DNA from: Phycisphaerae bacterium
GTDB lineage: Bacteria; Planctomycetota; Phycisphaerae; SM23-33
Direction of reading: 5' to 3'
Length of the DNA stretch: 32,226 nt
Assembly: GCA_049510055.1 (NCBI GenBank)
Contig: JBEKZI010000017.1
Coordinates: forward strand, 1 to 32,226
Part shown: piece by piece, positions 3,939 through 25,841 of the stretch
Numbering within the stretch: the first letter of the stretch is position 1
How the letters are laid out: each line of letters opens with the position of its first letter
Notes under the pieces: generated by a model
The model's database searches: none
Told to the model about the DNA's origin: nothing
The model's input: the letters and a program-made list of their open reading frames with translations, nothing else
Program-made: the position numbers and the translations under genes

Positions 3939-4133
3939 TGTTTCATCCCAAGGCTGTCTGGGCAGCCTAAGCTAAAGAGTCGCGTATTATGGCGTTTACC
4001 GCGGATAAGTCAACGGCATTTCGCCCGGAAACGCAGAAACCGCCGCGTCCTTGCGTGGCTCGCCGGGAGGGCTTAGGCTGGCAAGGGCCGGGATGGCTGC
4101 GAAGGCGCCGTCCGGGCGGAAGGAGGTCGCACG

Positions 4134-8714: not shown

Positions 8715-9066
8715 GGGGGCGAACTGGCTTCGACCGGACGAGTTGCGGTGTCGGTGGCGTGCCCAGGTTCCAAGGAGGCCTGGTAAAACACCTTGGACTA
8801 ACTTCAGATGCCAATCCCGAATTGGCACTGGCTGCCTAATTAGGTAGCCCGTCCGGTGGGTCTTGCCCGCGAGGCCCGCCAGGACGCAAGCAGCGGGCTT
8901 ACCGGCTGGGAGTGGCCCGGTTACCCAGTCGGGACATTATGGGCGGGCTCGCCTTCGCCGGACCGTGTCGCCGCGGGCCGGCGAGGGGAGACCAAAACAG
9001 CGACTACGCACGTAGAGGCCGGCACTGAAACGTCACGGGACCCGGGTTCGATTCCCGGCGCCTCCA
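8715..9066 (+). ncRNA. ssrA: tmRNA (SsrA), one-piece, ~352 nt
   Basis: The 5' end GGGGGCGAACUGGCUUCGACC matches the tmRNA consensus (GGGGnnGA..UUCGAC). The 3' end GGACCCGGGUUCGAUUCCCGGCGCCUCCA has a T-arm plus an acceptor strand that pairs with the 5' GGGGGCG (6 Watson-Crick pairs and 1 G-U pair). An in-frame tag ORF GCC AAU CCC GAA UUG GCA CUG GCU GCC UAA lies at 8810..8839, about 95 nt from the 5' end; the E. coli resume codon is at about 90 nt. An E. coli-like GCACGUAGA element precedes the T-arm. Confidence 0.8.
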
Positions 9067-9147
9067 TCCTGCTTCGCTCCGGCCTGAGGGGCCGGAGCTT
9101 CGCAGGACTTTGTCCTGCGAAGTAAGCGAAGCGAACTAAAAGCAGGT

Positions 9148-9192: not shown

Positions 9193-9473
9193 ACGTCATC
9201 AGCTCACCTGCGGCTTGCCCGGCTCGCCTCGCCACAGCGAGTCGCCGTGGCGACTTGGCAAGCCGCTGCCAGAAACTGTTTCGACCCCGGGAACACGTGC
9301 TCCATTCTACTTCGCTTCCCGCACGTCAGCCGGAAGCCATTCGCCAGTGCCCTCGTCTGTGGCCGACGTTCACGGTGCCAGAGCATGTTGCCGCTTACGG
9401 CGTGCGGCGCTTTGACGTAATATGACCGGCGGCGGCAACAGGCGCCTTTTGGGACTTTCCAGACGGGAAACGC

Positions 9474-11615
9474 ATGCGGGATTTCACCCGATCTTTGAAG
9501 TACCTCTGGCCTTACCGGCTGCGGATAGGTCTGGCCCTGCTCTGCACGCTGGGTATCAGCGTGCTGTGGGCCGGCGGACTGGCTGCGATCCTGCCGGCGG
9601 CCAAGGTGCTGATGTCTTCCGAGGGCCTGCACGGCTGGGTGTACAGGCTGGCGGCCTCGGACCGCCTGGGCGTGGACCTGGTCTCGTACTTGCCCCCCGA
9701 GCGCACCCAACTCCAGGGCCAGCAGCTCTCTTGGGTGGTGGCGGTGGGGCAGCCCCATCGTTCGCACCGCAACGCCGGCGCCCTGCTGCCGGGCCAGTGG
9801 GTGGTGGGTCTGGAGGATGGCGACGTCGCTCACCGGTTTCTGCGGGCGGATGCACTGCTGCGGCTGCTGGCGATGCAGCAGCCGGATCGGCGGATCACGC
9901 TTCGCGTATGCCGGTCGGACAGCGACCAGATTACGCTGTTGCCTGTGGTGACAAGCACGTTGACCCTGTCGACCCAAGCGATGCTTTGGCTGACCCGGCG
10001 CTTTCCCGAGCCGCGGACCTTCGCGGACCGCTTCCCGATCCTGTTGACGCTGCTGGTCTTCGGGATCGTCATCAGCATCCTGCGCGACGCCCTGCGGATT
10101 CTTCAGGAATTCCTGTCCAGCTCGGCGGTGTGGTACGCGGTGAATGACATCCGCAACGACAACTACAACGTGGCCCTGCGTCTGCCGGTGGGCTATTACG
10201 CCAAGCACGGGACCGCCGACGCGATCAGCCGTTTCACCTATGACGTGGGTATGCTGGCCCGGGGGCTCATCACGTTGCTGAGCAAGACGCTGGTGGAGCC
10301 CGCCAAGGCGTTGGCGACGCTGGCCCTGGCGCTCATCCTGTCCTGGAAGCTGACCCTGATCGCCCTGATCGCCGGTCCGCCGGCATTCCTGGCCATTCGC
10401 CGGCTGGGGCGGGCGATGCGACGCGTTTCGCGCCAGGCGATGCTGAGCATGTCCCAAATGCTGGAGGTGCTGGAGGAGACGCTCGGCGGCATCCGAGTGG
10501 TCAAGGCCTACACCATGGAGAATCGCGAGCGCCGGCGGTTCCTGCGGGTCAACCACCAGTTGCTCCGCCAGAACCTCAAGGTGTTCTTTGTGGAAGCGTT
10601 GACGGCCCCGATCGTGGAGGCGCTGGGGATCACCGCGGCCATGGCCGCCGTAGCCGTGGCGGGATACTGGGTGCTCCACAATCAGCACGACTTGGACGCC
10701 GAGAAGTTCCTGGCGTTGATGGCGTGCCTGGTGGCGATGTTCGACCCGATTCGCAAGCTCTCGTCCGTTTCGACCGTCTTTCACGCCTCGGACGCCGCCG
10801 CGGCGCGGATCAGGGAACTGCACGATGCGCCGCAGGAAGTCACGTCGCCCGGGGCGCCCAGTCTGCCGCGCCACCGGCGCAGCATCGAGTTCCGCCACGT
10901 CAGTTTCCGCTACGACGGGACGAGCGATGACGCCCTTCGCGACGTCAACCTGACTATCCGGGCCGGCGAGAACGTAGCCATCGTCGGGCCCAACGGTTCG
11001 GGCAAGACCACGCTGGTGTCGATGCTCCCGCGATTGTTGGACCCCACGACCGGCCAGGTGCTCATTGATGGGACGGACATCGCGCGGTGCTCTTTGCGGT
11101 CGTTGCGGCGGCAGATCGGGCTGGTGACGCAGGACGCCGTACTTTTCCACGCCACGATCGAGGAGAACATCTCCTACGGTCTGCACCGTTCGCAGCCCGA
11201 CAAGACCCGCCGCGCGGCCGAGCGGGCCTACGTGGACGAATTCATCCGGAAACTGCCCGAAGGATACGGCACCCTTGTGGGCCCCCATGGAGCGACGCTC
11301 TCGGGCGGGGAGAAGCAGCGGATCAGTATCGCTCGTGCCATCCTGCGCGACCCGGCTATCCTCATCTTTGACGAGGCGATGAGCCAGATCGACTCCGATT
11401 CGGAGCACCGGATTCAGCAAGCGATGCAGGAGTTCTCACGTGGCCGGACGACGCTGATCGTCGCGCACCGCTTTGCGACGGTGCTGGCCGCCGGCCGCAT
11501 TGTGGTGATGCAGGCGGGGCGGATTCAGGACAGCGGCACGCACGACGAGTTGATGAGCCGCTGTGAACTCTATCGACACCTCTACGCCACTCAGTTCATC
11601 GCCACGGGCGGCTAG
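9474..11615 (+). CDS. ABC exporter (fused transmembrane and ATPase domains, MsbA/McjD-like) with a ~150-aa extracytoplasmic insertion between TM1 and TM2
   Basis: It has Walker A GPNGSGKTT, ABC signature LSGGEKQR, Walker B ILIFDEAMS and an H-loop IVAHR. Six hydrophobic helices are present, plus a long hydrophilic loop (residues ~48-190) after TM1. It is convergent with the RiPP operon. The 738-aa minus-strand ORF over it is an antisense artefact. Confidence 0.9.
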   Translation: MRDFTRSLKYLWPYRLRIGLALLCTLGISVLWAGGLAAILPAAKVLMSSEGLHGWVYRLAASDRLGVDLVSYLPPERTQLQGQQLSWVVAVGQPHRSHRNAGALLPGQWVVGLEDGDVAHRFLRADALLRLLAMQQPDRRITLRVCRSDSDQITLLPVVTSTLTLSTQAMLWLTRRFPEPRTFADRFPILLTLLVFGIVISILRDALRILQEFLSSSAVWYAVNDIRNDNYNVALRLPVGYYAKHGTADAISRFTYDVGMLARGLITLLSKTLVEPAKALATLALALILSWKLTLIALIAGPPAFLAIRRLGRAMRRVSRQAMLSMSQMLEVLEETLGGIRVVKAYTMENRERRRFLRVNHQLLRQNLKVFFVEALTAPIVEALGITAAMAAVAVAGYWVLHNQHDLDAEKFLALMACLVAMFDPIRKLSSVSTVFHASDAAAARIRELHDAPQEVTSPGAPSLPRHRRSIEFRHVSFRYDGTSDDALRDVNLTIRAGENVAIVGPNGSGKTTLVSMLPRLLDPTTGQVLIDGTDIARCSLRSLRRQIGLVTQDAVLFHATIEENISYGLHRSQPDKTRRAAERAYVDEFIRKLPEGYGTLVGPHGATLSGGEKQRISIARAILRDPAILIFDEAMSQIDSDSEHRIQQAMQEFSRGRTTLIVAHRFATVLAAGRIVVMQAGRIQDSGTHDELMSRCELYRHLYATQFIATGG

Positions 11616-15299: not shown

Positions 15300-15410
15300 C
15301 CCCCCCGTTACATCCGAAAGCTGCTCACGCTTCTGAAACGTTGGCTGAGAAGAGGGCTTCTGGGGCGTTTCTACGCTTTCCCTAACCCGATACCGTGGCG
15401 AAGCCGCACT
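15300..15410 (-). pseudogene. Decayed ninth copy of a type-1 precursor-peptide unit (start codon and Shine-Dalgarno lost)
   Basis: It aligns base-for-base with the functional units (for example CATCCGAAAGCTGCTCACGCTTCTGAAACGTTGGCTGAGAAGAGGGCTTCTGGGGCGTTTCTACGC against TATCCGAGAGCTTTTCACGCTTCTGGAGCGTAGGCGGAGAATAGGGTTTCTTCGTTTGCATGC). TCTACGC replaces TGCATGC at the start, and the SD CTCCTTC is mutated to TTTCCCT. Confidence 0.5.
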
Positions 15411-15416
15411 GTCTAT

Positions 15417-15518
15417 TTAAAAGGGCCCCCCTGAGCCGCGGACCGGGCTTTGAGTCGTATCCGAGAGCTTTTCGCGCTTCTGGAGCGTTGGCGGAGAATA
15501 GGGTTTCTTCGTTTTCAT
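15417..15518 (-). CDS. Precursor peptide A, type 1 (33 aa): MKTKKPYSPPTLQKREKLSDTTQ | SPVRGSGGPF
   Basis: AAGGAGAT Shine-Dalgarno 8 nt before the ATG. The leader carries Y-17, P-14, L-12 and T-2. It is not in the ORF track (under 60 aa). It is one of 8 tandem paralogues. Confidence 0.7.
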   Translation of the reverse strand: MKTKKPYSPPTLQKREKLSDTTQSPVRGSGGPF

Positions 15519-15562
15519 GCGATCTCCTTCAACCGGCACTGTGGCGACGCCGCACTGCCCGC

Positions 15563-15667
15563 TTAACGCCTAGCGCCCGAGGTGATGGAGGGACCGCCTT
15601 GAGTCATATCTGAGAGCTTGTCCCGCTTTTGGAGCGTCGGCGGAGAATAGGGCTTCTTCGTTTTCAT
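15563..15667 (-). CDS. Precursor peptide B, type 1 (34 aa): MKTKKPYSPPTLQKRDKLSDMTQ | GGPSITSGARR
   Basis: Hand-translated from the minus strand. AAAGAGCT Shine-Dalgarno-like sequence. Same leader as peptide A; the core differs. Confidence 0.7.
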   Translation of the reverse strand: MKTKKPYSPPTLQKRDKLSDMTQGGPSITSGARR

Positions 15668-15712
15668 GCGAGCTCTTTCAGCCGGCATCGTGGCGACGCC
15701 GCAGAAGCCTAC

Positions 15713-15826
15713 TTAACCCGTACCATCCCTAGCGCCTGAGGTGATGGGGGGACTACCTTGAGTCATATCTGAGAGCTTGTCCCGCTTCTGGAGCGTAGGC
15801 GGAGAATAGGGCTTCTTCGTTTTCAT
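15713..15826 (-). CDS. Precursor peptide C, type 1 (37 aa): MKTKKPYSPPTLQKRDKLSDMTQ | GSPPITSGARDGTG
   Basis: Hand-translated from the minus strand. Leader identical to peptide B. Core carries the ITSG motif. Confidence 0.7.
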   Translation of the reverse strand: MKTKKPYSPPTLQKRDKLSDMTQGSPPITSGARDGTG

Positions 15827-15871
15827 GCGAGCTCTTTCAGCCGGCACCGTGGCGACGCCGCAGAAGCCTGC

Positions 15872-15985
15872 TTAAGCATTACCATCCCTAGCGCCTGAGG
15901 TGATGGGGGGGTCGCCTTGAGTCATATCTGAAAGCTTGTCCCGCTTCTGGAGCGTAGGTGGAGAATAGGGTTTCTTCGTTTTCAT
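15872..15985 (-). CDS. Precursor peptide D, type 1 (37 aa): MKTKKPYSPPTLQKRDKLSDMTQ | GDPPITSGARDGNA
   Basis: Hand-translated from the minus strand. AAAGGAGAT Shine-Dalgarno. Leader identical to peptides B and C. Confidence 0.7.
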   Translation of the reverse strand: MKTKKPYSPPTLQKRDKLSDMTQGDPPITSGARDGNA

Positions 15986-16030
15986 GCGATCTCCTTTAGC
16001 CAGCACCGTGGCGACGCCGCAGAAGCCTAC

Positions 16031-16141
16031 TTAATCATTAGCATCAACGCCCGAGGTGATGGAGGCCCCGCCTTGAGTCGTATCCGAGAGCTTTTCACGC
16101 TTCTGGAGCGTAGGCGGAGAATAGGGTTTCTTCGTTTGCAT
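16031..16141 (-). CDS. Precursor peptide E, type 1 (36 aa): MQTKKPYSPPTLQKREKLSDTTQ | GGASITSGVDAND
   Basis: It is the internal Met of track ORF 16031..16240. AAGGAGAT Shine-Dalgarno before this ATG. Confidence 0.75.
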   Translation of the reverse strand: MQTKKPYSPPTLQKREKLSDTTQGGASITSGVDAND

Positions 16142-16181
16142 GCAATCTCCTTCAACCGGCACCGTGGCGACGCCGCGTTGG

Positions 16182-16292
16182 TCACGGGGGTGTAGGTGTA
16201 ACCCCGCTGACGCCGTCGGGCACAGCGGTGATGTCGGCAAGCCGCTCCAGCTTCTTCAACACGGGTTTGACATAGGGCTTCTTGGCGTTCAT
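16182..16292 (-). CDS. Precursor peptide F, type 2 (36 aa): MNAKKPYVKPVLKKLERLADITA | VPDGVSGVTPTPP
   Basis: It is the internal Met of track ORF 16182..16364. AAGGAAT Shine-Dalgarno. The type-2 leader carries the same Y-17, P-14, L-12 and T-2 positions. Confidence 0.75.
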   Translation of the reverse strand: MNAKKPYVKPVLKKLERLADITAVPDGVSGVTPTPP

Positions 16293-16305
16293 GCGTATTC
16301 CTTGG

Positions 16306-16416
16306 TCACTCGGGTGTAACCCCGCTGACGACGCCGGGCGTACCCTGAGCGGTGATGTCGGCAAGCCGCTCCAGCTTCTTCAACACGGGTTTGGCATAGG
16401 ACTTCTTGGTGTCCAT
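16306..16416 (-). CDS. Precursor peptide G, type 2 (36 aa): MDTKKSYAKPVLKKLERLADITA | QGTPGVVSGVTPE
   Basis: It is the internal Met of track ORF 16306..16488. AAAGGAAT Shine-Dalgarno. Confidence 0.75.
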   Translation of the reverse strand: MDTKKSYAKPVLKKLERLADITAQGTPGVVSGVTPE

Positions 16417-16429
16417 GCGTATTCCTTTT

Positions 16430-16540
16430 TCAACCGGGTGTAGCCCCACTGACGACGCCGGGCGTGCCCTGAGCGGTGATGTCGGCAAGCCGCTCCAGCT
16501 TCTTCAACACGGGTTTGGCATAAGGCTTCTTGGCGTTCAT
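16430..16540 (-). CDS. Precursor peptide H, type 2 (36 aa): MNAKKPYAKPVLKKLERLADITA | QGTPGVVSGATPG
   Basis: It is the internal Met of track ORF 16430..16663. AAAGGAAT Shine-Dalgarno. It is the first gene of the array after B2. Confidence 0.75.
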   Translation of the reverse strand: MNAKKPYAKPVLKKLERLADITAQGTPGVVSGATPG

Positions 16541-16646
16541 GCGTATTCCTTTCGCGTGCGGTCTGCCAAGCACGGAAATACGACCCGTATGAATGAGCGT
16601 CCACCACGTGTGACTTCGGACGAAGCTGGGCGGAAACTTAACACAG

Positions 16647-17397: not shown

Positions 17398-17474
17398 AGA
17401 AAGCTCACCTGAAGGTTTTCGTACCGCCGAATTCGACGGCCGCATTGTATAGTCACCGCCGACTTTCCACAACC

Positions 17475-17518
17475 TGCGGCGAACCTACCCTGGCAAGCCG
17501 GAATCGCGATTTCACACC
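17475..17518 (+). promoter_or_regulatory. Conserved ~45-nt element, copy 1 (TGCGGCGAACCTACCCTGGCAAGCCGGAATCGCGATTTCACACC), containing the perfect palindrome AATCGCGATT
   Basis: It matches 25584..25627 in the same orientation with a few substitutions. The perfect palindrome AATCGCGATT is at 17502..17511. It sits in the divergent region between the B1 gene and the secreted-protein gene. Confidence 0.55.
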
Positions 17519-17678
17519 ATGCCCGCCGATTCTGCGTGTCGCAGAAATGCGAAAAATATAGAGGGTCGGTAACACGTTGGTGACAATTGCCCTCTATCAT
17601 GCCGAGAGTAAATGAGCCGAATTGAGATCTTCGGCACGGGCCTAAACCAATGACTTCGGCAAGATAAAGGGACCAATC

Positions 17679-20165
17679 ATGAGACCACGGTTGATAGTGA
17701 TGGCAGTGGCCGCGACCTTGGCTGCAGTGGCATGCCTGGCGCAGGCCGAAAAAGCCTCCGTCCTTCTGGACAAGGGCATCTACACCGAAGAAACGCTTGG
17801 GAACCCCTCCGCGGCCATCGGCATCTACAGCCAGGTGGTCGCCAGCGGCGAGGCCGACCGCCAGTATGCCGCCCAGGCCCAGTATCGCATCGCGATGTGC
17901 CACCTGAAGCTCAAGCACGACAACGAGGCCCGCGAGGCGCTGAAGACATTCCTGAGCAAGTACAGCGATCAGGAAGAGCTGGCGTCCAAGGCCCGGACCG
18001 CGCTGGAGGACCTGCTGGAGTTCGACCCGGCGGCGCTCATGCCTCCCACCATCGTGGCCTACGTCGAGGTGGGCAGCCCCGGCAAACAGCTCGAGACGGT
18101 CCTGAAGATGCTGAAGGGCACGCCTTTGGCCAATCCGCTGGAGATGATGAATCCAACATCCGCGCCGTCGGATGCCTCCGCGCCGTCGGCGACCTCCGCG
18201 CCGGCGACTTCCTACGGCCGCCCCGCCAGTCCCGCCCAGGTCTTCTCGGCGTTGCTGAATCCCAGCATGCTGAAAGAGTTCAAGAAGCTTCGCAGCATGG
18301 CCGTGGGCGTCTCCGAGATCAAAGGCCGCGGCCAGAGCCCCTTCGTGGCCGTCTTGAGGCCCGGCGACAGCGACGCGCTCCGCGGGATCCTCACGGCCGG
18401 CGTGCTTGCCTCCGGCCAGCCCACCGCCCCGATCGAAGGCATGCAGACGGTGCAACTCAGCCCGGAGATGGCCTGCGCGTTCGACGACAGCGTGTTCCTC
18501 TTTGCCTCCCCGGTGTCTCAACTTGCCTGGAGCGTCCATCAGTATAAGTCCGGCGCGCCCGAACCCAGCCTGCTGACCGCCAACGAGTCGTTTTCGCGGC
18601 TGGCCCCTGCCGCCGATCGCAAAAATGACGCGCTGACGGTCTGGGCGAACCCTTCTCGGCTGCTCCAAAACAAAGCGTACATCCCGCCGGAAGCCCTGGA
18701 GAAAATGATGATCGCAAACGCCTTCGCCGACTTCGAAAACATGGAGGGCGCCGTCGTCCGGTTGCGCCTCAAGGAGACCAGCCTCAGCCTGGAGGCCACC
18801 GTCGCCTACCGCGAGGGGCGCAAAGCGTTTGGGTATGACCTGATCCGCACGTGTCCACTGGACCAGGCCGGTTTTGCCGCCGTTCCTCCGCAGGCGGTGG
18901 GCATCGTGGCCCTGGCCCTGTTGGAGCACACCGCCTCAACAGAACCTCCCGTCGCCGACGTTCGGCAGGAGACCGTCCGCCGTATCACCGGGCTGGACCT
19001 GGGGAGAGAGCTGTTCAGTAATATCGAGCAACTCTCGCTGTTCTTGATGCCGTCCAGCGAGGCGGCGACGGCCCATCCGTTGAGCCGTCTGTCTGTGGTG
19101 GCCCCGTCGCTGGGCCTGGCCATTACGTCGCGCAACCCCGCGCAGACCCTGGCCGTGCTGGACAGGATGTTGACGGTCCAAGGCCTGATGTCGGCAGGTT
19201 CCACCAGCGCCCCGGCGGCGGACGAGCAAGGCATGCGGACGTACGTAATCGGCGCCAGCAACCAGAAGCCGATATCCCTGTGCGTGGCGCAGAAAGGCAA
19301 GACCACGGTGCTGGCGTTCCTTCCGGAAGTGGTCCAGACGTCTCTGACGGCCCTGGGCACGGGCAAGAACGTCACGACCGACGGGCCGATGGCACAGGCC
19401 CTCGGCCAGGTCAGCGACAAGAACAAGGTGGTGCTGGTCAACGCCGGCGGACTGTTCCGCTTGTATGACGCCAGCGTCGCGCCGCCCGCGGCAAAACGCG
19501 ACGCGGCGTCGCAGCCGGCGACGGACAGCCAGGCCGTGGCCGATCAGATCGCCTCGGCCCTGGACGACACGGTAATCCGGCTGGAGACCTCCGAACTGCC
19601 GAACACCATGACGGTCCGCGCCGAGCTATTGGGCATTCCGCCGCTGGCGAAGCTGTTTCCTCTGGTCATGCAGTATCAGCAGCAGCGCATGGCCTTCCAG
19701 AAGGCCAGGAAATCGCAAGCACAACCTTCCCAAGAGCGCAACAAGCTCATGAAGCAGGTCGGAACAGATTTCCTCAAGGCCCTCCAGGCAAATGACGAGG
19801 CGGCGATTGGGAAATTGATCGTCCCGCACTCCTCCGTGGAGGCCAAGATCAAGGACCTACTTGCAGTCCCGGGTCTGGCGGCGTTTCGGTTCCAGGATAG
19901 CGGCAGGGCGCTAAATCTCGGTTGGGTCCTGGTGTACGGGCCCGACAAGACGGATTCCTCGGCGCCCGCGATACTGATCCATCTGCTCAAGCAGGCCAAG
20001 TCCCCGCCGCCGTGGCTCGTCTCGGACGTGGAAATCCTTCCGATCCCGGATGCCATACACCAATTGAAGCAGTACGATTCCAGGGCCACCGGCGGCCCGA
20101 TGCCGGCGCCTGCGCCGGCGCCCGCGCCTGCGGGTGATGATGCGGCGCCCGCCGAGAACAACTGA
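17679..20165 (+). CDS. Secreted 828-aa hypothetical protein (Sec signal peptide, TPR-like N-terminal region, Ala/Pro/Ser-rich linker, C-terminal PAPAPAPA)
   Basis: Signal peptide MRPRLIVMAVAATLAAVACLAQA. The amino-acid composition is coherent. AAAGGGA Shine-Dalgarno. The overlapping 511-aa minus-strand ORF is an artefact. Confidence 0.7.
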   Translation: MRPRLIVMAVAATLAAVACLAQAEKASVLLDKGIYTEETLGNPSAAIGIYSQVVASGEADRQYAAQAQYRIAMCHLKLKHDNEAREALKTFLSKYSDQEELASKARTALEDLLEFDPAALMPPTIVAYVEVGSPGKQLETVLKMLKGTPLANPLEMMNPTSAPSDASAPSATSAPATSYGRPASPAQVFSALLNPSMLKEFKKLRSMAVGVSEIKGRGQSPFVAVLRPGDSDALRGILTAGVLASGQPTAPIEGMQTVQLSPEMACAFDDSVFLFASPVSQLAWSVHQYKSGAPEPSLLTANESFSRLAPAADRKNDALTVWANPSRLLQNKAYIPPEALEKMMIANAFADFENMEGAVVRLRLKETSLSLEATVAYREGRKAFGYDLIRTCPLDQAGFAAVPPQAVGIVALALLEHTASTEPPVADVRQETVRRITGLDLGRELFSNIEQLSLFLMPSSEAATAHPLSRLSVVAPSLGLAITSRNPAQTLAVLDRMLTVQGLMSAGSTSAPAADEQGMRTYVIGASNQKPISLCVAQKGKTTVLAFLPEVVQTSLTALGTGKNVTTDGPMAQALGQVSDKNKVVLVNAGGLFRLYDASVAPPAAKRDAASQPATDSQAVADQIASALDDTVIRLETSELPNTMTVRAELLGIPPLAKLFPLVMQYQQQRMAFQKARKSQAQPSQERNKLMKQVGTDFLKALQANDEAAIGKLIVPHSSVEAKIKDLLAVPGLAAFRFQDSGRALNLGWVLVYGPDKTDSSAPAILIHLLKQAKSPPPWLVSDVEILPIPDAIHQLKQYDSRATGGPMPAPAPAPAPAGDDAAPAENN

Positions 20166-20175
20166 TGATGAACCG

Positions 20176-22155
20176 ATGAACGCGGTTTCCATTGGCAGGG
20201 GTGAAGGCACAGGCCGCAGCCACGTGTTGCGGCCTGTGCTGGTCGTTTTGCTGGCGACGGTCCTGGTGCCGTCGGCCTGCACGTTGTGGTTCATGTATGC
20301 CGCCGTGCAGGAAGTGTCGCTGGCTTCCCGCCAGCGCCTGGCGGATGCCTACGACGGCGCGGTCCGAGGGGCCGCGGCCAGGCTTCAGGACTATTGCTCA
20401 GCCCGGATCGCCTCGCTGTCGGCCGGCGGCGATCCGTCGCCGACGAAGGCCTTCGACCGGCTGGTCTTGGCCCGCGCCGCCGATGCCGTGATCGTCCGCG
20501 ACGGCGCCGGCCGTCTGCTCTACCCCTCCCCCCAGGTTCCCTCCGGGCAGGCCAGAGCGATGTCGCAAGCGTGGCAGTCGGCGGAAGACTTGGAGCACGC
20601 GCAGGCGGACGGCCTGGCTGCCGCAGCCGCCTATGCCCGGATCGCCGACACCGCCCCCAATGCCGACCTGCGGGCTCAGGCGATGCTGGCCCAGGCGCGA
20701 TGCCTGGCCAAGGCGGGGCAGAAGGATCAGGCTGTCGCCATCCTGCGGGCCCTGGCCGAGAATCCCGACTTGCAAGCCGCCAGGGGCGCCCAAGGGCGGC
20801 TGGTGACGCCCAATGCCGTCCTGTTCGCCCTGCAACTGATCAACCGGCCGGAGGATGAGCAGTTCCGCAAGCTGGCGGCGGGCCTGGTGAAACGGCTCAA
20901 CGATTACGAGGAACCGGCGATGCCGCCCAGCCAGCGGCGGTTCCTCATGGCCGCGCTGTGGGAGATGGACAACTCCCTTCCGCCTTTCGCAACGCTTGCG
21001 GCCGAGAACCTGGCGGCTGAGTATCTCAGTCGCCCGCAGCCGGCGCCACAGCCGTCGCAACTAACGCCGACGTCCCTGCCCGGCGTTTGGCAGGCGGCCG
21101 GGCCCGGCGGCACCGTGACGGGTCTGTTCCGGCAGGACCTTCTGCTGGCGAACATGCACTTGGCCATCCAGGCGGACGCCCCCCGGGGAGTGAGCCTGTT
21201 CATAAGGCCGCCGACCGGCGAACCGACGACGCGGCAGCGGGCCTTCGTGACTTTGCCGGCCGGGGCCGCCTTGCCCGGCTGGACGGTGGAGGTCCTGCTG
21301 ACCGGCGACGATCCCTTCGCCGTGGCGGCCCGGCAGCGCAAGGCCGCCATTCTGTGGACGGCCGCCGTCGGCATCATGATGATCCTGGCGCTGGCGGCGG
21401 TGTTGAGCTACTACCTCAGCCGCCAGGTGCGGCTGACGCGGCTGAAAAACGATCTGATCGCCACCGTGTCGCACGAGCTGAAGACCCCCCTGGCCTCCAT
21501 GCGCCTGCTGATCGACACGCTTCTGGAACGGCGCTATGGCGCCCAGGAGCAGGCCGAGGAATATTTAGCGATGATCGCCAAGGAAAATGAGCGCCTCAGC
21601 CGGCTCATCGATAACTTTTTGAATTTCTCGCGGATGGAGCGCCGCAAGACGGCGTTCGTGTTCGCGGCGCTGCCGGCCGATGAGCTGGTCGCCGCGGTCA
21701 TGCGGGCGGCGCCGGATCGGGTGACCCAGCCGCCGTGCCGTTTTGAATTGGACGTGGCGAAAGACTGCCCCGCCGTCCGCGGCGACCGCGACGCGCTGGT
21801 GACCGTCGTGCTGAACCTGCTGGACAATGCCTACAAATACTCCCACGACCCCCGGCGCATTGCGCTTCGCGTCTTCGGACAGGAAGGCCGCCTGCACCTG
21901 GAGGTCCGCGACAATGGCATCGGCCTGTCGCGCCGTTCAGTCCGTCGGGTGTTCCGACGCTTCTACCAGGTGGACCGCAGCCTTTCGCGCTCGGTGGGTG
22001 GTTGCGGTCTGGGGCTGAGCATTGTTAAATTTATCGTCGATGCCCACGGCGGCACCGTGGACGTCTCCAGCCGGCTCGGCCAAGGGAGCACGTTCACCGT
22101 CACGCTGCCGGGCCTGGAAGACGGCGCGGGACACGCAGGCCATGATGAAAGCTGA
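20176..22155 (+). CDS. Sensor histidine kinase (TM helix, large periplasmic domain, second TM helix, HisKA, HATPase)
   Basis: H-box SHELKTPLASMRLLIDTLLE. N box LLDNAYKYS. G boxes DNGIGL and GLGLSIVKFIVDAHGG. The start is taken at ATG 20176; the track ORF begins at GTG 20134. Confidence 0.85.
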   Translation: MNAVSIGRGEGTGRSHVLRPVLVVLLATVLVPSACTLWFMYAAVQEVSLASRQRLADAYDGAVRGAAARLQDYCSARIASLSAGGDPSPTKAFDRLVLARAADAVIVRDGAGRLLYPSPQVPSGQARAMSQAWQSAEDLEHAQADGLAAAAAYARIADTAPNADLRAQAMLAQARCLAKAGQKDQAVAILRALAENPDLQAARGAQGRLVTPNAVLFALQLINRPEDEQFRKLAAGLVKRLNDYEEPAMPPSQRRFLMAALWEMDNSLPPFATLAAENLAAEYLSRPQPAPQPSQLTPTSLPGVWQAAGPGGTVTGLFRQDLLLANMHLAIQADAPRGVSLFIRPPTGEPTTRQRAFVTLPAGAALPGWTVEVLLTGDDPFAVAARQRKAAILWTAAVGIMMILALAAVLSYYLSRQVRLTRLKNDLIATVSHELKTPLASMRLLIDTLLERRYGAQEQAEEYLAMIAKENERLSRLIDNFLNFSRMERRKTAFVFAALPADELVAAVMRAAPDRVTQPPCRFELDVAKDCPAVRGDRDALVTVVLNLLDNAYKYSHDPRRIALRVFGQEGRLHLEVRDNGIGLSRRSVRRVFRRFYQVDRSLSRSVGGCGLGLSIVKFIVDAHGGTVDVSSRLGQGSTFTVTLPGLEDGAGHAGHDES

Positions 22156-22843
22156 TCCGACTACCGACGAAACAATCCTCATCGTCGAGGACGAGCCCGC
22201 CATGCTGCGGGGCCTGAAGGACAATTTTCAGTTCGAGGGCTACCGCGTCCTGACGGCCGCCGACGGCGAGAAAGGGCTGGAGCTCGCCTGCGACGCCAAA
22301 CCGGACCTGATCCTCCTGGACATCATGCTGCCCAAGGTGAACGGCTATGAGATATGCCGGCTCCTGCGAAGCGAGGGGCTGGACATGCCGATCATCATGC
22401 TGACGGCCAAGGGGCAGGAGAGCGACATCATCCTGGGGCTGAACCTCGGCGCCGACGATTACGTCACCAAGCCTTTCAGCATCAAGGAGCTGCTGGCCCG
22501 CGTGCGGACGATGCTCCGTCGCCGCCGCCAGAAACAGCAACCGGTGATGCGAGCCGGCGACCTGGAACTGGACCTCGCCAGCCACCGGTTGCGGCGGGGG
22601 GGCAAGGAAGTGCCGCTCACGGCCAAGGAATTCGCCTTGCTTGAGCTGTTCTTCCGCCGGGCGGGCAAGGCCCTGACGCGGGATGAGATCCTGCGGACGG
22701 TGTGGGGCTACAACGTGTTCGTCACCTCCCGCAGCGTGGACCGATTCATCAACACGTTGCGGGCCAAGATCGAGGACGACCCCGCCAAACCCATCTGGAT
22801 CAAGACCGTCCGCCAGATAGGCTATCGCTTCGAACTTCCGTGA
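22142..22843 (+). CDS. OmpR-family response regulator (receiver plus winged-helix domain)
   Basis: Receiver domain ILIVEDEP ... LILLDIMLP ... MLTAKG. The C-terminal end IGYRFELP is typical of OmpR/PhoB. The start overlaps the kinase stop by 14 nt. Confidence 0.9.
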   Translation: MMKADPTTDETILIVEDEPAMLRGLKDNFQFEGYRVLTAADGEKGLELACDAKPDLILLDIMLPKVNGYEICRLLRSEGLDMPIIMLTAKGQESDIILGLNLGADDYVTKPFSIKELLARVRTMLRRRRQKQQPVMRAGDLELDLASHRLRRGGKEVPLTAKEFALLELFFRRAGKALTRDEILRTVWGYNVFVTSRSVDRFINTLRAKIEDDPAKPIWIKTVRQIGYRFELP

Positions 22844-25330: not shown

Positions 25331-25537
25331 ATGAGATCGCCCAGCGTCGGCAGGATCGTGATCGACAGGGTGCCGCACTTCCACAAGGGACGGGTCAAGT
25401 TCCTCGGCAGAATCGTGGACCAGGACGGCCACGAGCTGTTCCACGGGAGAACGTACGACTCCCGACTGGAGGCCCGCAAGTACTGCGAGAACGCTGCCCA
25501 GGCCCAGGGCATTCGCCTTTCACGCGAGAAGAGATGA
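25331..25537 (+). CDS. Small hypothetical protein (68 aa) in the leader region of the flotillin gene
   Basis: GGAGAAcaccATG Shine-Dalgarno. Third-position GC is very high, like real genes in this window. No family recognised. Confidence 0.4.
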   Translation: MRSPSVGRIVIDRVPHFHKGRVKFLGRIVDQDGHELFHGRTYDSRLEARKYCENAAQAQGIRLSREKR

Positions 25538-25583
25538 CGGCTGCATGCCTCTAAGAGTGCCCGCGAAGACGGGCTTCTTGTCC

Positions 25584-25627
25584 CTCTACCCATCGCGGCG
25601 AGCCTCCCTTGGCAAGTCGGAATCGCG
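25584..25627 (+). promoter_or_regulatory. Conserved ~45-nt element, copy 2 (TCGCGGCGAGCCTCCCTTGGCAAGTCGGAATCGCGATTTCACACC)
   Basis: Same orientation as copy 1 at 17475..17518. Palindrome AATCGCGATT at 25611..25620. It lies ~210 nt upstream of the flotillin ATG. Confidence 0.55.
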
Positions 25628-25841
25628 ATTTCACACCGCCACGTCGGAACTCCAGGGCGGGGGCACCAAAACCGGGGCGGAAAAATGTTGCACAACAGGG
25701 GCCGTCAGAGACAATCAAGGGTCCCGGACCTGCCACCGTCGTGGGGCACGGTCTCGGGAAGGCATTTCCGATGGGGAGTCGGTTTGGGACGACAAGTCCG
25801 ACCCAACCTCCGCTAAGGAAGCAAGCAAAAAGGAGCTTGGC

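What the first reader, a model, noticed from the sequence alone, without database searches (positions are those of the whole stretch)
17475..17518. A ~45-nt element with the perfect palindrome AATCGCGATT occurs twice in the same orientation, upstream of the secreted-protein gene and of the flotillin gene
17475..17518 and 25584..25627 share CGCGGCGA(A/G)CCT(A/C)CCC(T)TGGCAAG(C/T)CGGAATCGCGATTTCACACC. In both cases the element sits 160-210 nt upstream of a plus-strand gene for an envelope protein. The first copy is also about 75 nt from the RiPP operon start in the divergent orientation. A 10-bp perfect palindrome inside a conserved block is the hallmark of a dimeric transcription-factor operator. 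Alternatively, it could mark a shared leader RNA structure.
Basis: seen in the sequence. Interest (0 to 1): 0.55.

Follow-up and report, generated by a model that had tools for sequence, protein, structure and literature searches.

The report
Duplicated 44-nt upstream element, Phycisphaerae
A 44-base sequence really does occur twice, upstream of two envelope-related transcription units in an uncultured Phycisphaerae bacterium. It is a young, lineage-specific element, most likely a far-upstream regulator-binding site, it is not the site of the neighbouring response regulator, and its function is not established.

Summary
The repeat is real. Window 17475-17518 and 25594-25637 share 39 of 44 nt, and the last 21 nt are identical. 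Shuffles never reproduce the match. I found no third copy in the ~38 kb of this genome I could read.

Both copies are intergenic and in the same orientation. Each lies 64-77 nt upstream of the weak sigma70-like -10 candidates (7 of 12) of its downstream unit: the TPR-HK-RR operon and the SPFH/flotillin gene. Copy 1 also abuts the -35 of a candidate promoter for the divergent RiPP operon.

I found no Rfam match, no stable or shared RNA fold, no terminal inverted repeats or target duplications, no integrase-like domain in the Pfam hits and no composition break.

The adjacent OmpR/PhoB-type regulator is not the likely ligand. Three orthologous TPR-HK-RR operons carry a pho-box-like direct repeat, GGTRACA-N4-GGTRACA, 9 nt before a TAYCNT -10-like box. 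The window has it at 17568-17585. The block is absent from those operons and from five flotillin-orthologue promoters.

Best guess (~0.4): a site at about -70 to -100 for an unidentified dimeric regulator. A neutral or selfish short repeat is nearly as likely (~0.3). Genome-wide copy number could not be measured. The finding is ordinary and of low interest.

The parts
17475..17518 (+). Copy 1 of the block: TGCGGCGAACCTACCCTGGCAAGCCGGAATCGCGATTTCACACC. It sits in the 281-nt divergent intergenic region between the PqqD-like gene (RiPP operon, minus strand, start 17397) and the TPR protein gene (ATG 17679).
25594..25637 (+). Copy 2 of the block: CGCGGCGAGCCTCCCTTGGCAAGTCGGAATCGCGATTTCACACC. It lies between the terminator-like hairpin of the 68-aa ORF and the SPFH/flotillin gene (ATG 25842).
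17502..17511 (.). Perfect 10-bp palindrome AATCGCGATT within copy 1. It extends to 12 of 14 symmetric positions as GGAATCGCGATTTC.
25621..25630 (.). The same palindrome within copy 2.
17568..17585 (+). Not part of the block but decisive for interpreting it: direct repeat GGTAACA-cgtt-GGTGACA (7-4-7, pho-box-like). This is the candidate operator of the OmpR/PhoB-type regulator. It occurs once only in the window, counting both strands, and is conserved upstream of orthologous TPR-HK-RR operons.
17595..17600 (+). TATCAT, a -10-like hexamer 9 nt after the direct repeat. The equivalent position in the orthologues reads TACCTT, TACCCT, GATCAT and TACCCT.
   Evidence: the promoter function is inferred
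17444..17472 (-). Candidate sigma70-type promoter of the RiPP operon, TTGTGG-17-TACAAT (8 of 12 matches). Its -35 ends 3 nt from the 5' edge of copy 1.
   Evidence: inferred
25688..25715 (+). The only sigma70-like candidate upstream of the flotillin gene, TTGCAC-16-GACAAT (7 of 12 matches, weak). Its -10 starts 73 nt after the end of copy 2.
   Evidence: inferred
25559..25574 (+). Terminator-like hairpin GCCCGCGAAGACGGGC followed by a T-rich tail, after the 68-aa ORF. Copy 2 begins 20 nt later, so it lies in a promoter region and not inside the upstream transcript.

Best explanation
The block is a lineage-specific cis-regulatory DNA site. I propose that a dimeric DNA-binding protein, not identified here, recognises the GGAATCGCGATTTC dyad together with its conserved flanks. 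From about 90-100 bp upstream of the transcription starts it would modulate two weak promoters: that of the TPR-histidine kinase-response regulator operon and that of the SPFH/flotillin gene. At copy 1 the same bound protein would sit at about -70 from the candidate promoter of the divergent RiPP operon. The adjacent OmpR/PhoB-type regulator acts separately, through its own pho-box-like direct repeat at 17568-17585.

What is shown: the repeat itself, its intergenic position and orientation, the absence of RNA or mobile-element signatures, and the separate conserved response-regulator box.

What is inferred: the promoter positions, protein binding to the block, and co-regulation of the genes.
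For: The 39/44 match is far beyond chance: 0 of 100 shuffles reproduce it. Both copies lie in promoter-bearing intergenic DNA, which makes up about 10% of the window. They share one orientation relative to the downstream gene. They also sit at similar distances from the -10 candidates: 64 or 77 nt for copy 1 and 73 nt for copy 2. Copy 2 starts just after a terminator-like hairpin. All five differences between the copies fall in the first 24 nt, and the palindrome plus its 3' flank is invariant (p about 0.04 under a uniform spread). The flotillin core promoter candidate here is weak at 7 of 12 matches. The orthologue in L052 has a 10-of-12 promoter and no block, which fits dependence on an upstream factor. 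The same 18-mer, CGGAATCGCGATTTCACA, occurs in a Tepidisphaeraceae (class Phycisphaerae) MAG. There it is intergenic, in the same orientation, about 150 nt upstream of a secretin/TPR gene, on a contig that is compositionally close to the window (tetranucleotide r = 0.86).
Against: Only two copies are known, and genome-wide copy number could not be measured. The block is absent upstream of five flotillin orthologues (75-82% aa identity) and three TPR-HK-RR orthologues (49-53%), so there is no phylogenetic footprint. The dyad is short, with 12 of 24 positions symmetric. The 25 conserved nt on its 5' side are not explained by a simple dimer site. Perfect 10-bp palindromes are frequent in this window. 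No candidate regulator is encoded nearby: the 68-aa ORF next to copy 2 models as a beta-beta-beta-alpha fold with no significant PDB match (best Foldseek E = 0.05, to the uncharacterised HVO_2922), which does not point to a known DNA binder. The Tepidisphaeraceae hit is one of 13 hits where about 17 were expected by chance (my own estimate from the collection size), and it was picked out after the fact.
Confidence: 0.4

Rival explanations
1. The block is a neutral or selfish short repeat: a recently copied 44-nt patch, or a low-copy dispersed intergenic repeat, with no regulatory role. It would be retained only because it is young.
For: The block is absent from every orthologous promoter examined, so it is evolutionarily recent at both loci. 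It has sharp boundaries and unrelated flanks. Planctomycete relatives do carry short intergenic repeats; for example, one hairpin repeat occurs twice upstream of the flotillin orthologue in L033. Both whole intergenic regions are 100% identical in strains that are 97-98% identical overall, so within-species data show no extra constraint on the block itself.
Against: There are no terminal inverted repeats, no target-site duplication and no stable hairpin. No further copy was found in about 38 kb of this genome, in viral contigs or in plasmids. The same orientation, the similar spacing to promoters, and the clustering of differences away from the palindrome would all be coincidences under this reading.
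Confidence: 0.3
2. The block is itself a promoter for an alternative sigma factor (ECF-type or sigma54-like). Transcription would start just after CACACC and give 5' UTRs of 155-200 nt.
For: Blocks of about 30-45 nt that are conserved and asymmetric are typical of alternative-sigma promoters. TGGCAAG matches 6 of 7 positions of the sigma54 -24 element TGGCACG. YTGGCAAG occurs four times in the window, always intergenic and always on the sense strand of the next gene. In Bacillus subtilis, flotillin genes belong to the sigmaW envelope-stress regulon (my own knowledge).
Against: The sigma54 spacing fails: GG-N10 is followed by TC, not GC, and the nearest GC needs N12 (read directly). No ECF-like AAC/CGT pair is conserved at 16-17 nt spacing, and the one GAAC is GAGC in copy 2. 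A sigma70 reading (TTGGCA-17-CACACC) has no usable -10. In real sigma regulons the spacer is not conserved, yet here it is identical. TGGCAAG is not enriched in intergenic DNA of relatives.
Confidence: 0.1
3. The block acts as RNA, either as a shared 5' leader element or as part of a small RNA.
For: The downstream genes have long untranslated regions if transcription begins upstream of the block.
Against: No Rfam family reaches its threshold. The only hit up to E = 10 is isrQ at 13.8 bits against a gathering score of 50. Minimum-free-energy z-scores are +0.25, -1.4, +0.64 and +0.04 for the two copies on both strands, and the predicted structures differ between copies. The conserved response-regulator box with its -10, and the only flotillin promoter candidate, both lie downstream of the block, so the block is probably not transcribed with these genes.
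Confidence: 0.06
4. The two direct repeats are recombination (att-like) sites that bound an 8.1-kb inserted or translocated segment carrying TPR-HK-RR-BipA-68aa.
For: The two copies are direct repeats in the same orientation, 8119 nt apart, and they enclose a discrete gene set. Synteny around both flanking units differs in relatives.
Against: No integrase, transposase or phage domain appears in the Pfam hits for the segment, which includes the housekeeping GTPase BipA. GC content and skew show no break at either copy. No excised or empty-site variant appears among more than 20 contigs of the species.
Confidence: 0.04

Closest known systems
Pho box and other OmpR/PhoB-family operators (two 7-bp direct repeats with a 4-bp spacer, about 10 bp upstream of the -10)
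   Same: The block lies in the control region of an operon encoding an OmpR/PhoB-family regulator.
   Different: The block has no direct repeat at 10-12 bp periodicity. A true pho-box-like 7-4-7 repeat, GGTAACAcgttGGTGACA, sits 50 nt further downstream, 9 nt before a -10-like TATCAT. That repeat, not the block, is conserved in orthologous operons.
Palindromic operators and upstream activator sites of dimeric helix-turn-helix regulators (for example CRP-type class I sites centred near -70 to -93)
   Same: Both have a dyad-symmetric core and recur upstream of more than one transcription unit. The block's palindrome centre is inferred at about -88 to -100 for the TPR and flotillin promoters, and at about -70 for the divergent RiPP promoter.
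   Different: Symmetry is limited to 10-14 bp, while another 25 nt on one side is conserved. No cognate regulator is known. The block is not conserved in orthologous promoters. The sequence matches none of the operator consensuses I could recall (CRP, FNR, Rex, LacI-family, ArgR, LexA variants, parS, DnaA box); these were comparisons from memory, not database tests.
REP- or MITE-like short intergenic repeats
   Same: Both are short, sharply bounded, intergenic and lineage-specific.
   Different: The block has no hairpin, no terminal inverted repeats and no target duplication. Only two copies were seen.
Bacillus subtilis sigmaW regulon, which includes the flotillin genes floT and floA (my own knowledge)
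   Same: In both cases a flotillin gene shares a cis element with other envelope-related genes.
   Different: No ECF-type -35/-10 pair can be placed in the block. This is a functional analogy only.

Membership tests
OmpR/PhoB-family response-regulator operator | Two similar 6-7-bp half-sites in direct orientation, 10-11 bp centre to centre | tested here: not met
   Self-comparison of both copies at shifts of 10-12 gives at most 3 of 7 matches for any heptamer pair. A scan for GGTRACA-N4-GGTRACA finds only 17568-17585 in the window.
OmpR/PhoB-family response-regulator operator | Conservation upstream of orthologous autoregulated operons | tested here: not met
   The block is absent from L049, L050 and L051 even when up to 8 of 27 mismatches are allowed. 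The direct repeat is present in all three.
Palindromic operator of a dimeric transcription factor | Dyad symmetry across the protected site | tested here: inconclusive
   The perfect palindrome is 10 bp, with 12 of 14 positions symmetric in the extended form, but only 12 of the central 24 nt are symmetric. There are 55 perfect 10-bp palindromes in the window.
Palindromic operator of a dimeric transcription factor | Recurrence in 5' regions of several genes of one genome | tested here: inconclusive
   Both of the two known copies are upstream of genes. The rest of the genome could not be scanned. The species is missing from genome contigs. The metagenome collection missed at least 7 JGI contigs known to carry the 18-mer.
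Palindromic operator of a dimeric transcription factor | A cognate DNA-binding protein | not testable with these tools
   No regulator other than the OmpR-type response regulator is recognisable in the window. The 68-aa neighbour has no significant fold match in the PDB.
MITE / REP-type dispersed repeat | Terminal inverted repeats and target-site duplication (MITE), or a stable hairpin (REP) | tested here: not met
   The ends and flanks, read directly, show no inverted repeats and no duplication. Fold z-scores range from -1.4 to +0.64.
MITE / REP-type dispersed repeat | Many copies per genome | tested here: inconclusive
   Two copies occur in about 38 kb. There are none in viral contigs or plasmids. 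The whole genome was not available.
sigma54 promoter | GG and GC dinucleotides separated by exactly 10 nt (-24/-12) | tested here: not met
   In TGGCAAGCCGGAATCGC, GG-N10 is followed by TC. The nearest GC requires N12 (sequence).
sigma70 promoter | A -35-like and a -10-like hexamer 16-18 nt apart inside the block | tested here: not met
   The standard scan finds none. A laxer scan (at least 7 of 12 matches) places all candidates outside the block.
Known structured RNA (Rfam 15) | A match at or above the family's gathering score | tested here: not met
att sites of an integrated element | An integrase or recombinase gene and a compositional island between the repeats | tested here: not met
   Pfam hits for the genes between the copies show none. 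The composition profile is flat.

The most novel reading that the evidence does not exclude
The block is a recently evolved upstream activating sequence. It would wire three neighbouring units into one regulon under an unidentified dimeric regulator: a RiPP biosynthesis operon, a PVC-wide TPR-sensor/histidine kinase/response regulator module, and a flotillin gene. Its 18-nt core (CGGAATCGCGATTTCACA) would be shared with at least one other Phycisphaerae family. That would be an example of regulon growth by copying a 44-nt cis module.
Probability: 0.2. Interest if true: 0.4.

Novelty: new member of a known kind. Interest (0 to 1): 0.22.

Why it matters
If the block is a genuine operator, it marks a small, recently assembled envelope-related regulon in an uncultured Phycisphaerae lineage, a group whose transcriptional regulation is, to my knowledge, little characterised. 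It would also give a bait sequence for identifying the regulator. The more solid by-product of this work is the pho-box-like direct repeat upstream of the TPR-HK-RR module. It predicts positive autoregulation of a three-gene signalling module that is conserved in relatives of this organism. Neither result changes current understanding. The block itself may yet prove to be a neutral repeat.

Tried and rejected
- **Genome-wide census.** The 18-mer scan of 185,579 species genomes gave 13 hits, none from this species. My own estimate from the collection size was about 17 chance hits.
- **Metagenome scan.** It gave 11 hits, and only L022 belongs to this species (copy 1). The collection evidently lacks at least 7 JGI contigs that carry copy 2, so the negative result says little.
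- **Extending the genome leftwards.** This failed. The first ArgJ look-up used the wrong start codon. After correction, all contigs end about 530 nt beyond argJ.
- **Within-species variation.** It is uninformative. Both intergenic regions are 100% identical even in strains 97-98% identical overall.
- **Small-ORF reading of the block.** Three of the five differences are synonymous in frame +0. However, there is no start codon or ribosome-binding site, and the reading frames continue differently after the block. I rejected this as chance.
- **The 68-aa ORF next to copy 2 as the regulator.** It is a real, conserved small protein (homologues at 69-91% identity). The confident AlphaFold model (pLDDT 86) is beta-beta-beta-alpha, with no significant PDB match (best Foldseek E = 0.05, to the uncharacterised HVO_2922). 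This gives no support for a DNA-binding role.
- **TGGCAAG as a general promoter element.** Four of its five occurrences in the window are intergenic, but it is not enriched in relatives.
- **A degenerate, inverted core-like sequence upstream of the flotillin orthologue in L031** (GGGATCGGGCTTTCAC, 3 mismatches). It belongs to a different local palindrome, so I treated it as chance.
- **Literature search for AATCGCGATT.** Nothing relevant was found.
- **Apparent excess of PVC-phylum hits.** Four of the 13 hits in the genome scan are from PVC phyla. One lies inside a gene with a Pfam-supported domain and another inside a long ORF, so I did not pursue this.

Full report
**Observation**

The two copies are at 17475-17518 and 25594-25637. 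They share 39 of 43 positions, or 39 of 44 with the first T/C position included. All differences lie in the first 24 nt, and the last 21 nt are identical. The 27-nt core with up to 3 mismatches, and the 23-nt 5' half, each occur exactly twice in the window and never in 100 shuffles. No weaker third copy was found in the window. None was found in the extra 5.6 kb to the right that same-species contigs provide.

The perfect palindrome AATCGCGATT is present in both copies. However, the window contains 55 perfect 10-bp palindromes. Only 12 of the 24 nt centred on the dyad are symmetric.

**Context**

The source is an uncultured Phycisphaerae bacterium, according to the name attached to P0001 and P0121.

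Copy 1 lies in a divergent 281-nt spacer.
- To its left, on the minus strand, is a RiPP-type operon: a PqqD-like gene, a transglutaminase-like protease, tandem 36-aa precursor genes, an HPr-kinase-like protein, NTP_transf_5, a B12-radical SAM enzyme and an ABC transporter.
- To its right is a secreted TPR protein followed by a histidine kinase and an OmpR/PhoB-family response regulator.

Copy 2 follows a 68-aa ORF and a terminator-like hairpin. It precedes an SPFH/flotillin gene by 204 nt.

**What the block is not**

- *RNA.* There is no Rfam match at the gathering score. Only a 13.8-bit isrQ hit appears at E = 2.5. Folds are no more stable than shuffles and differ between copies.
- *Mobile element.* The block has no terminal inverted repeats, no flanking duplication and no hairpin. 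Viral and plasmid collections give no match.
- *Island boundary.* No recombinase domain appears in the Pfam hits for the genes between the copies, and GC content and skew show no break.
- *sigma70 or sigma54 promoter.* No hexamer pair fits inside the block. The GG...GC spacing is 12 nt, not 10.
- *Coding sequence.* A synonymous-looking substitution pattern in one frame lacks any start signal.

**The neighbouring response regulator**

The TPR-HK-RR module is conserved. Homologues of the TPR protein at 49-53% identity (P0122, P0124, P0125) are again followed by a kinase and an OmpR-type regulator. One homologue, P0208, is fused to kinase domains.

Upstream of each operon is a 7-4-7 direct repeat, GGTRACA-N4-GGTRACA, followed 9 nt later by TAYCNT. 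Five sites align without gaps. In the window this repeat is GGTAACAcgttGGTGACA at 17568-17585, with TATCAT at 17595-17600. It is the only such repeat on either strand of the window.

This is the geometry of a pho box, which is established knowledge for PhoB. The regulator scores as a generic MtrA/WalR/RpaB/PhoB-like family member. I therefore infer that the regulator autoregulates through this repeat. The block contains no such repeat and is absent from all three orthologous control regions.

**Evolutionary age**

Five flotillin orthologues from distinct lineages were examined: P0008, P0009, P0010, P0002 and P0003, at 75-82% identity. Their upstream regions carry no block and show no synteny. 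L052 has a strong TTGACG-16-TAGAAT promoter about 99 nt before the ATG.

The block is therefore recent at both loci. All contigs of the species itself, down to 97% overall identity, keep both whole intergenic regions unchanged. This gives no site-specific information.

**Geometry (inferred)**

A relaxed scan gives the following candidates.
- Upstream of flotillin, TTGCAC-16-GACAAT (25688-25715) is the only one.
- For the TPR operon there are two: TAGAGG-17-GACAAT (17559-17587) and the comparative RR-box/TATCAT promoter.
- For the RiPP operon on the minus strand, TTGTGG-17-TACAAT (17472 to 17444).

The 3' end of the block is thus 64 or 77 nt (copy 1) and 73 nt (copy 2) from the -10 boxes. This places the dyad centre at about -88 to -100. 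It lies at about -70 from the RiPP start, with the block abutting that promoter's -35.

**Wider searches**

The 18-mer CGGAATCGCGATTTCACA gave 13 hits in the species-genome collection. My own estimate from the collection size was about 17 chance hits. Most hits lie inside long ORFs, at least four of which carry Pfam domains.

One hit is worth noting. It is in a Tepidisphaeraceae (Phycisphaerae) MAG, L010. There the 18-mer is intergenic, in the same orientation, about 150 nt upstream of a secretin/TPR gene that is not homologous to either window gene. The contig is compositionally close to the window (r = 0.86). If this is a true relative, the functional core is the 3' 18-20 nt of the block.

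The metagenome scan recovered only one contig of this species. It missed at least seven JGI contigs known to contain copy 2. Copy number in the genome therefore remains unknown.

**Verdict**

The block is a real, statistically secure, young two-copy element in promoter-upstream DNA.
- The most coherent reading is a far-upstream binding site for an unidentified dimeric regulator shared by the two (possibly three) adjacent units. Confidence is about 0.4.
- A neutral or selfish short repeat is the main rival, at about 0.3.
- The RNA alternative is unsupported.

Noticed in passing
window 17568-17600; L049 283-300; L050 4717-4734 and 5161-5178; L051 7911-7928: A pho-box-like direct repeat, GGTRACA-N4-GGTRACA, is followed 9 nt later by TAYCNT. 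It is conserved upstream of TPR-histidine kinase-OmpR-type regulator operons in four genomes. It is probably the autoregulatory operator and activator-dependent promoter of this module. L050 has a second copy upstream of a 70-aa ORF that follows mscL.
   Followed up: yes
window 17679-22843; proteins P0122-P0240: The secreted TPR protein belongs to a family with 325 database hits. The named ones are mostly Planctomycetota, with a few Verrucomicrobiota. Family members share a core covering about 80% of the query and have variable C-terminal LamG or CBM9 domains. The three closest homologues I fetched are each followed by HK-RR genes, and one homologue (P0208) is fused to HisKA/HATPase domains. 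This suggests the TPR protein is the sensory partner of the kinase.
   Followed up: partly
window 15312-16600 (minus strand): There are nine tandem repeat units, six of about 150-159 nt and three of 124 nt. At least the three 124-nt units correspond to 36-aa precursor genes called on same-species contigs. They sit beside PqqD-like, transglutaminase-like, HPr-kinase-like, NTP_transf_5, B12-radical SAM and ABC-transporter genes. This looks like a lasso-like RiPP cluster, but I saw no recognisable asparagine-synthetase-type cyclase.
   Followed up: no
window 4079, 9256, 17491, 25610: The heptamer TGGCAAG occurs five times in the window. Four occurrences are intergenic, preceded by a pyrimidine, and on the sense strand of the next gene. 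The site at 4078 reads CTGGCAAGGGCCGGGATGGC and loosely resembles the centre of the block. No such enrichment was seen in relatives.
   Followed up: partly
window 17551-17587 and 25680-25715: Downstream of both blocks, an A-tract (GAAAAAT) precedes GACAAT by 31 and 30 nt respectively. This fits an UP-element-like tract at about -43 of a GACAAT -10. In orthologues, GARAATCT occupies the same position, 8 nt before the response-regulator box.
   Followed up: partly
window 17558-17565 / 17590-17597: The inverted repeat ATAGAGGG ... CCCTCTAT brackets the response-regulator direct repeat. Its function is unknown.
   Followed up: no
L007 1056-1285 (Acidobacteria MAG): About ten tandem 21-nt units each contain GGAATCGCGATTTC-like sequence, and two of them carry the exact 18-mer of the block. 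The array lies between ORFs with no Pfam match. It looks like an iteron or operator array, and the resemblance to the block may be coincidental.
   Followed up: partly
L010 2258-2275 (Tepidisphaeraceae MAG): An exact copy of the 18-nt core of the block occurs in a divergent intergenic region. It lies about 30 nt before TTGCCG-17-TATCCT (read by eye) and about 150 nt before a 1301-aa TPR-secretin gene.
   Followed up: partly
window 25331-25538: The 68-aa ORF is a genuine conserved small protein, with homologues at 69-91% identity. The confident beta-beta-beta-alpha model has no significant structural match (best Foldseek E = 0.05, to the uncharacterised HVO_2922). Its relatives come from genomes closer to this one than any I could inspect for the block.
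   Followed up: partly
window 17398-17678 and 25539-25841, compared with L016 and L022: Both intergenic regions are 100% identical in strains whose overall identity to the window is 97-98%. This suggests either strong constraint on the whole control regions or patchy divergence caused by recombination.
   Followed up: partly
L033 about 9400-9650: A roughly 55-nt repeat with a GC-rich hairpin (…CACGGGCGGGACGCCCGTGCCACGATGAC) occurs twice upstream of the flotillin orthologue. It looks like a REP-type element in a related planctomycete.
   Followed up: no
window 1 (left edge); L036-L038: All three retrieved contigs from different assemblies of this species end about 350-530 nt beyond argJ, close to the window's left edge. 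This hints at a repeat or a variable region that breaks assemblies there.
   Followed up: no
window 8715-9069: A tmRNA gene (Rfam RF00023, 153 bits) has an extended -10 promoter (TGTATAAT) upstream.
   Followed up: no
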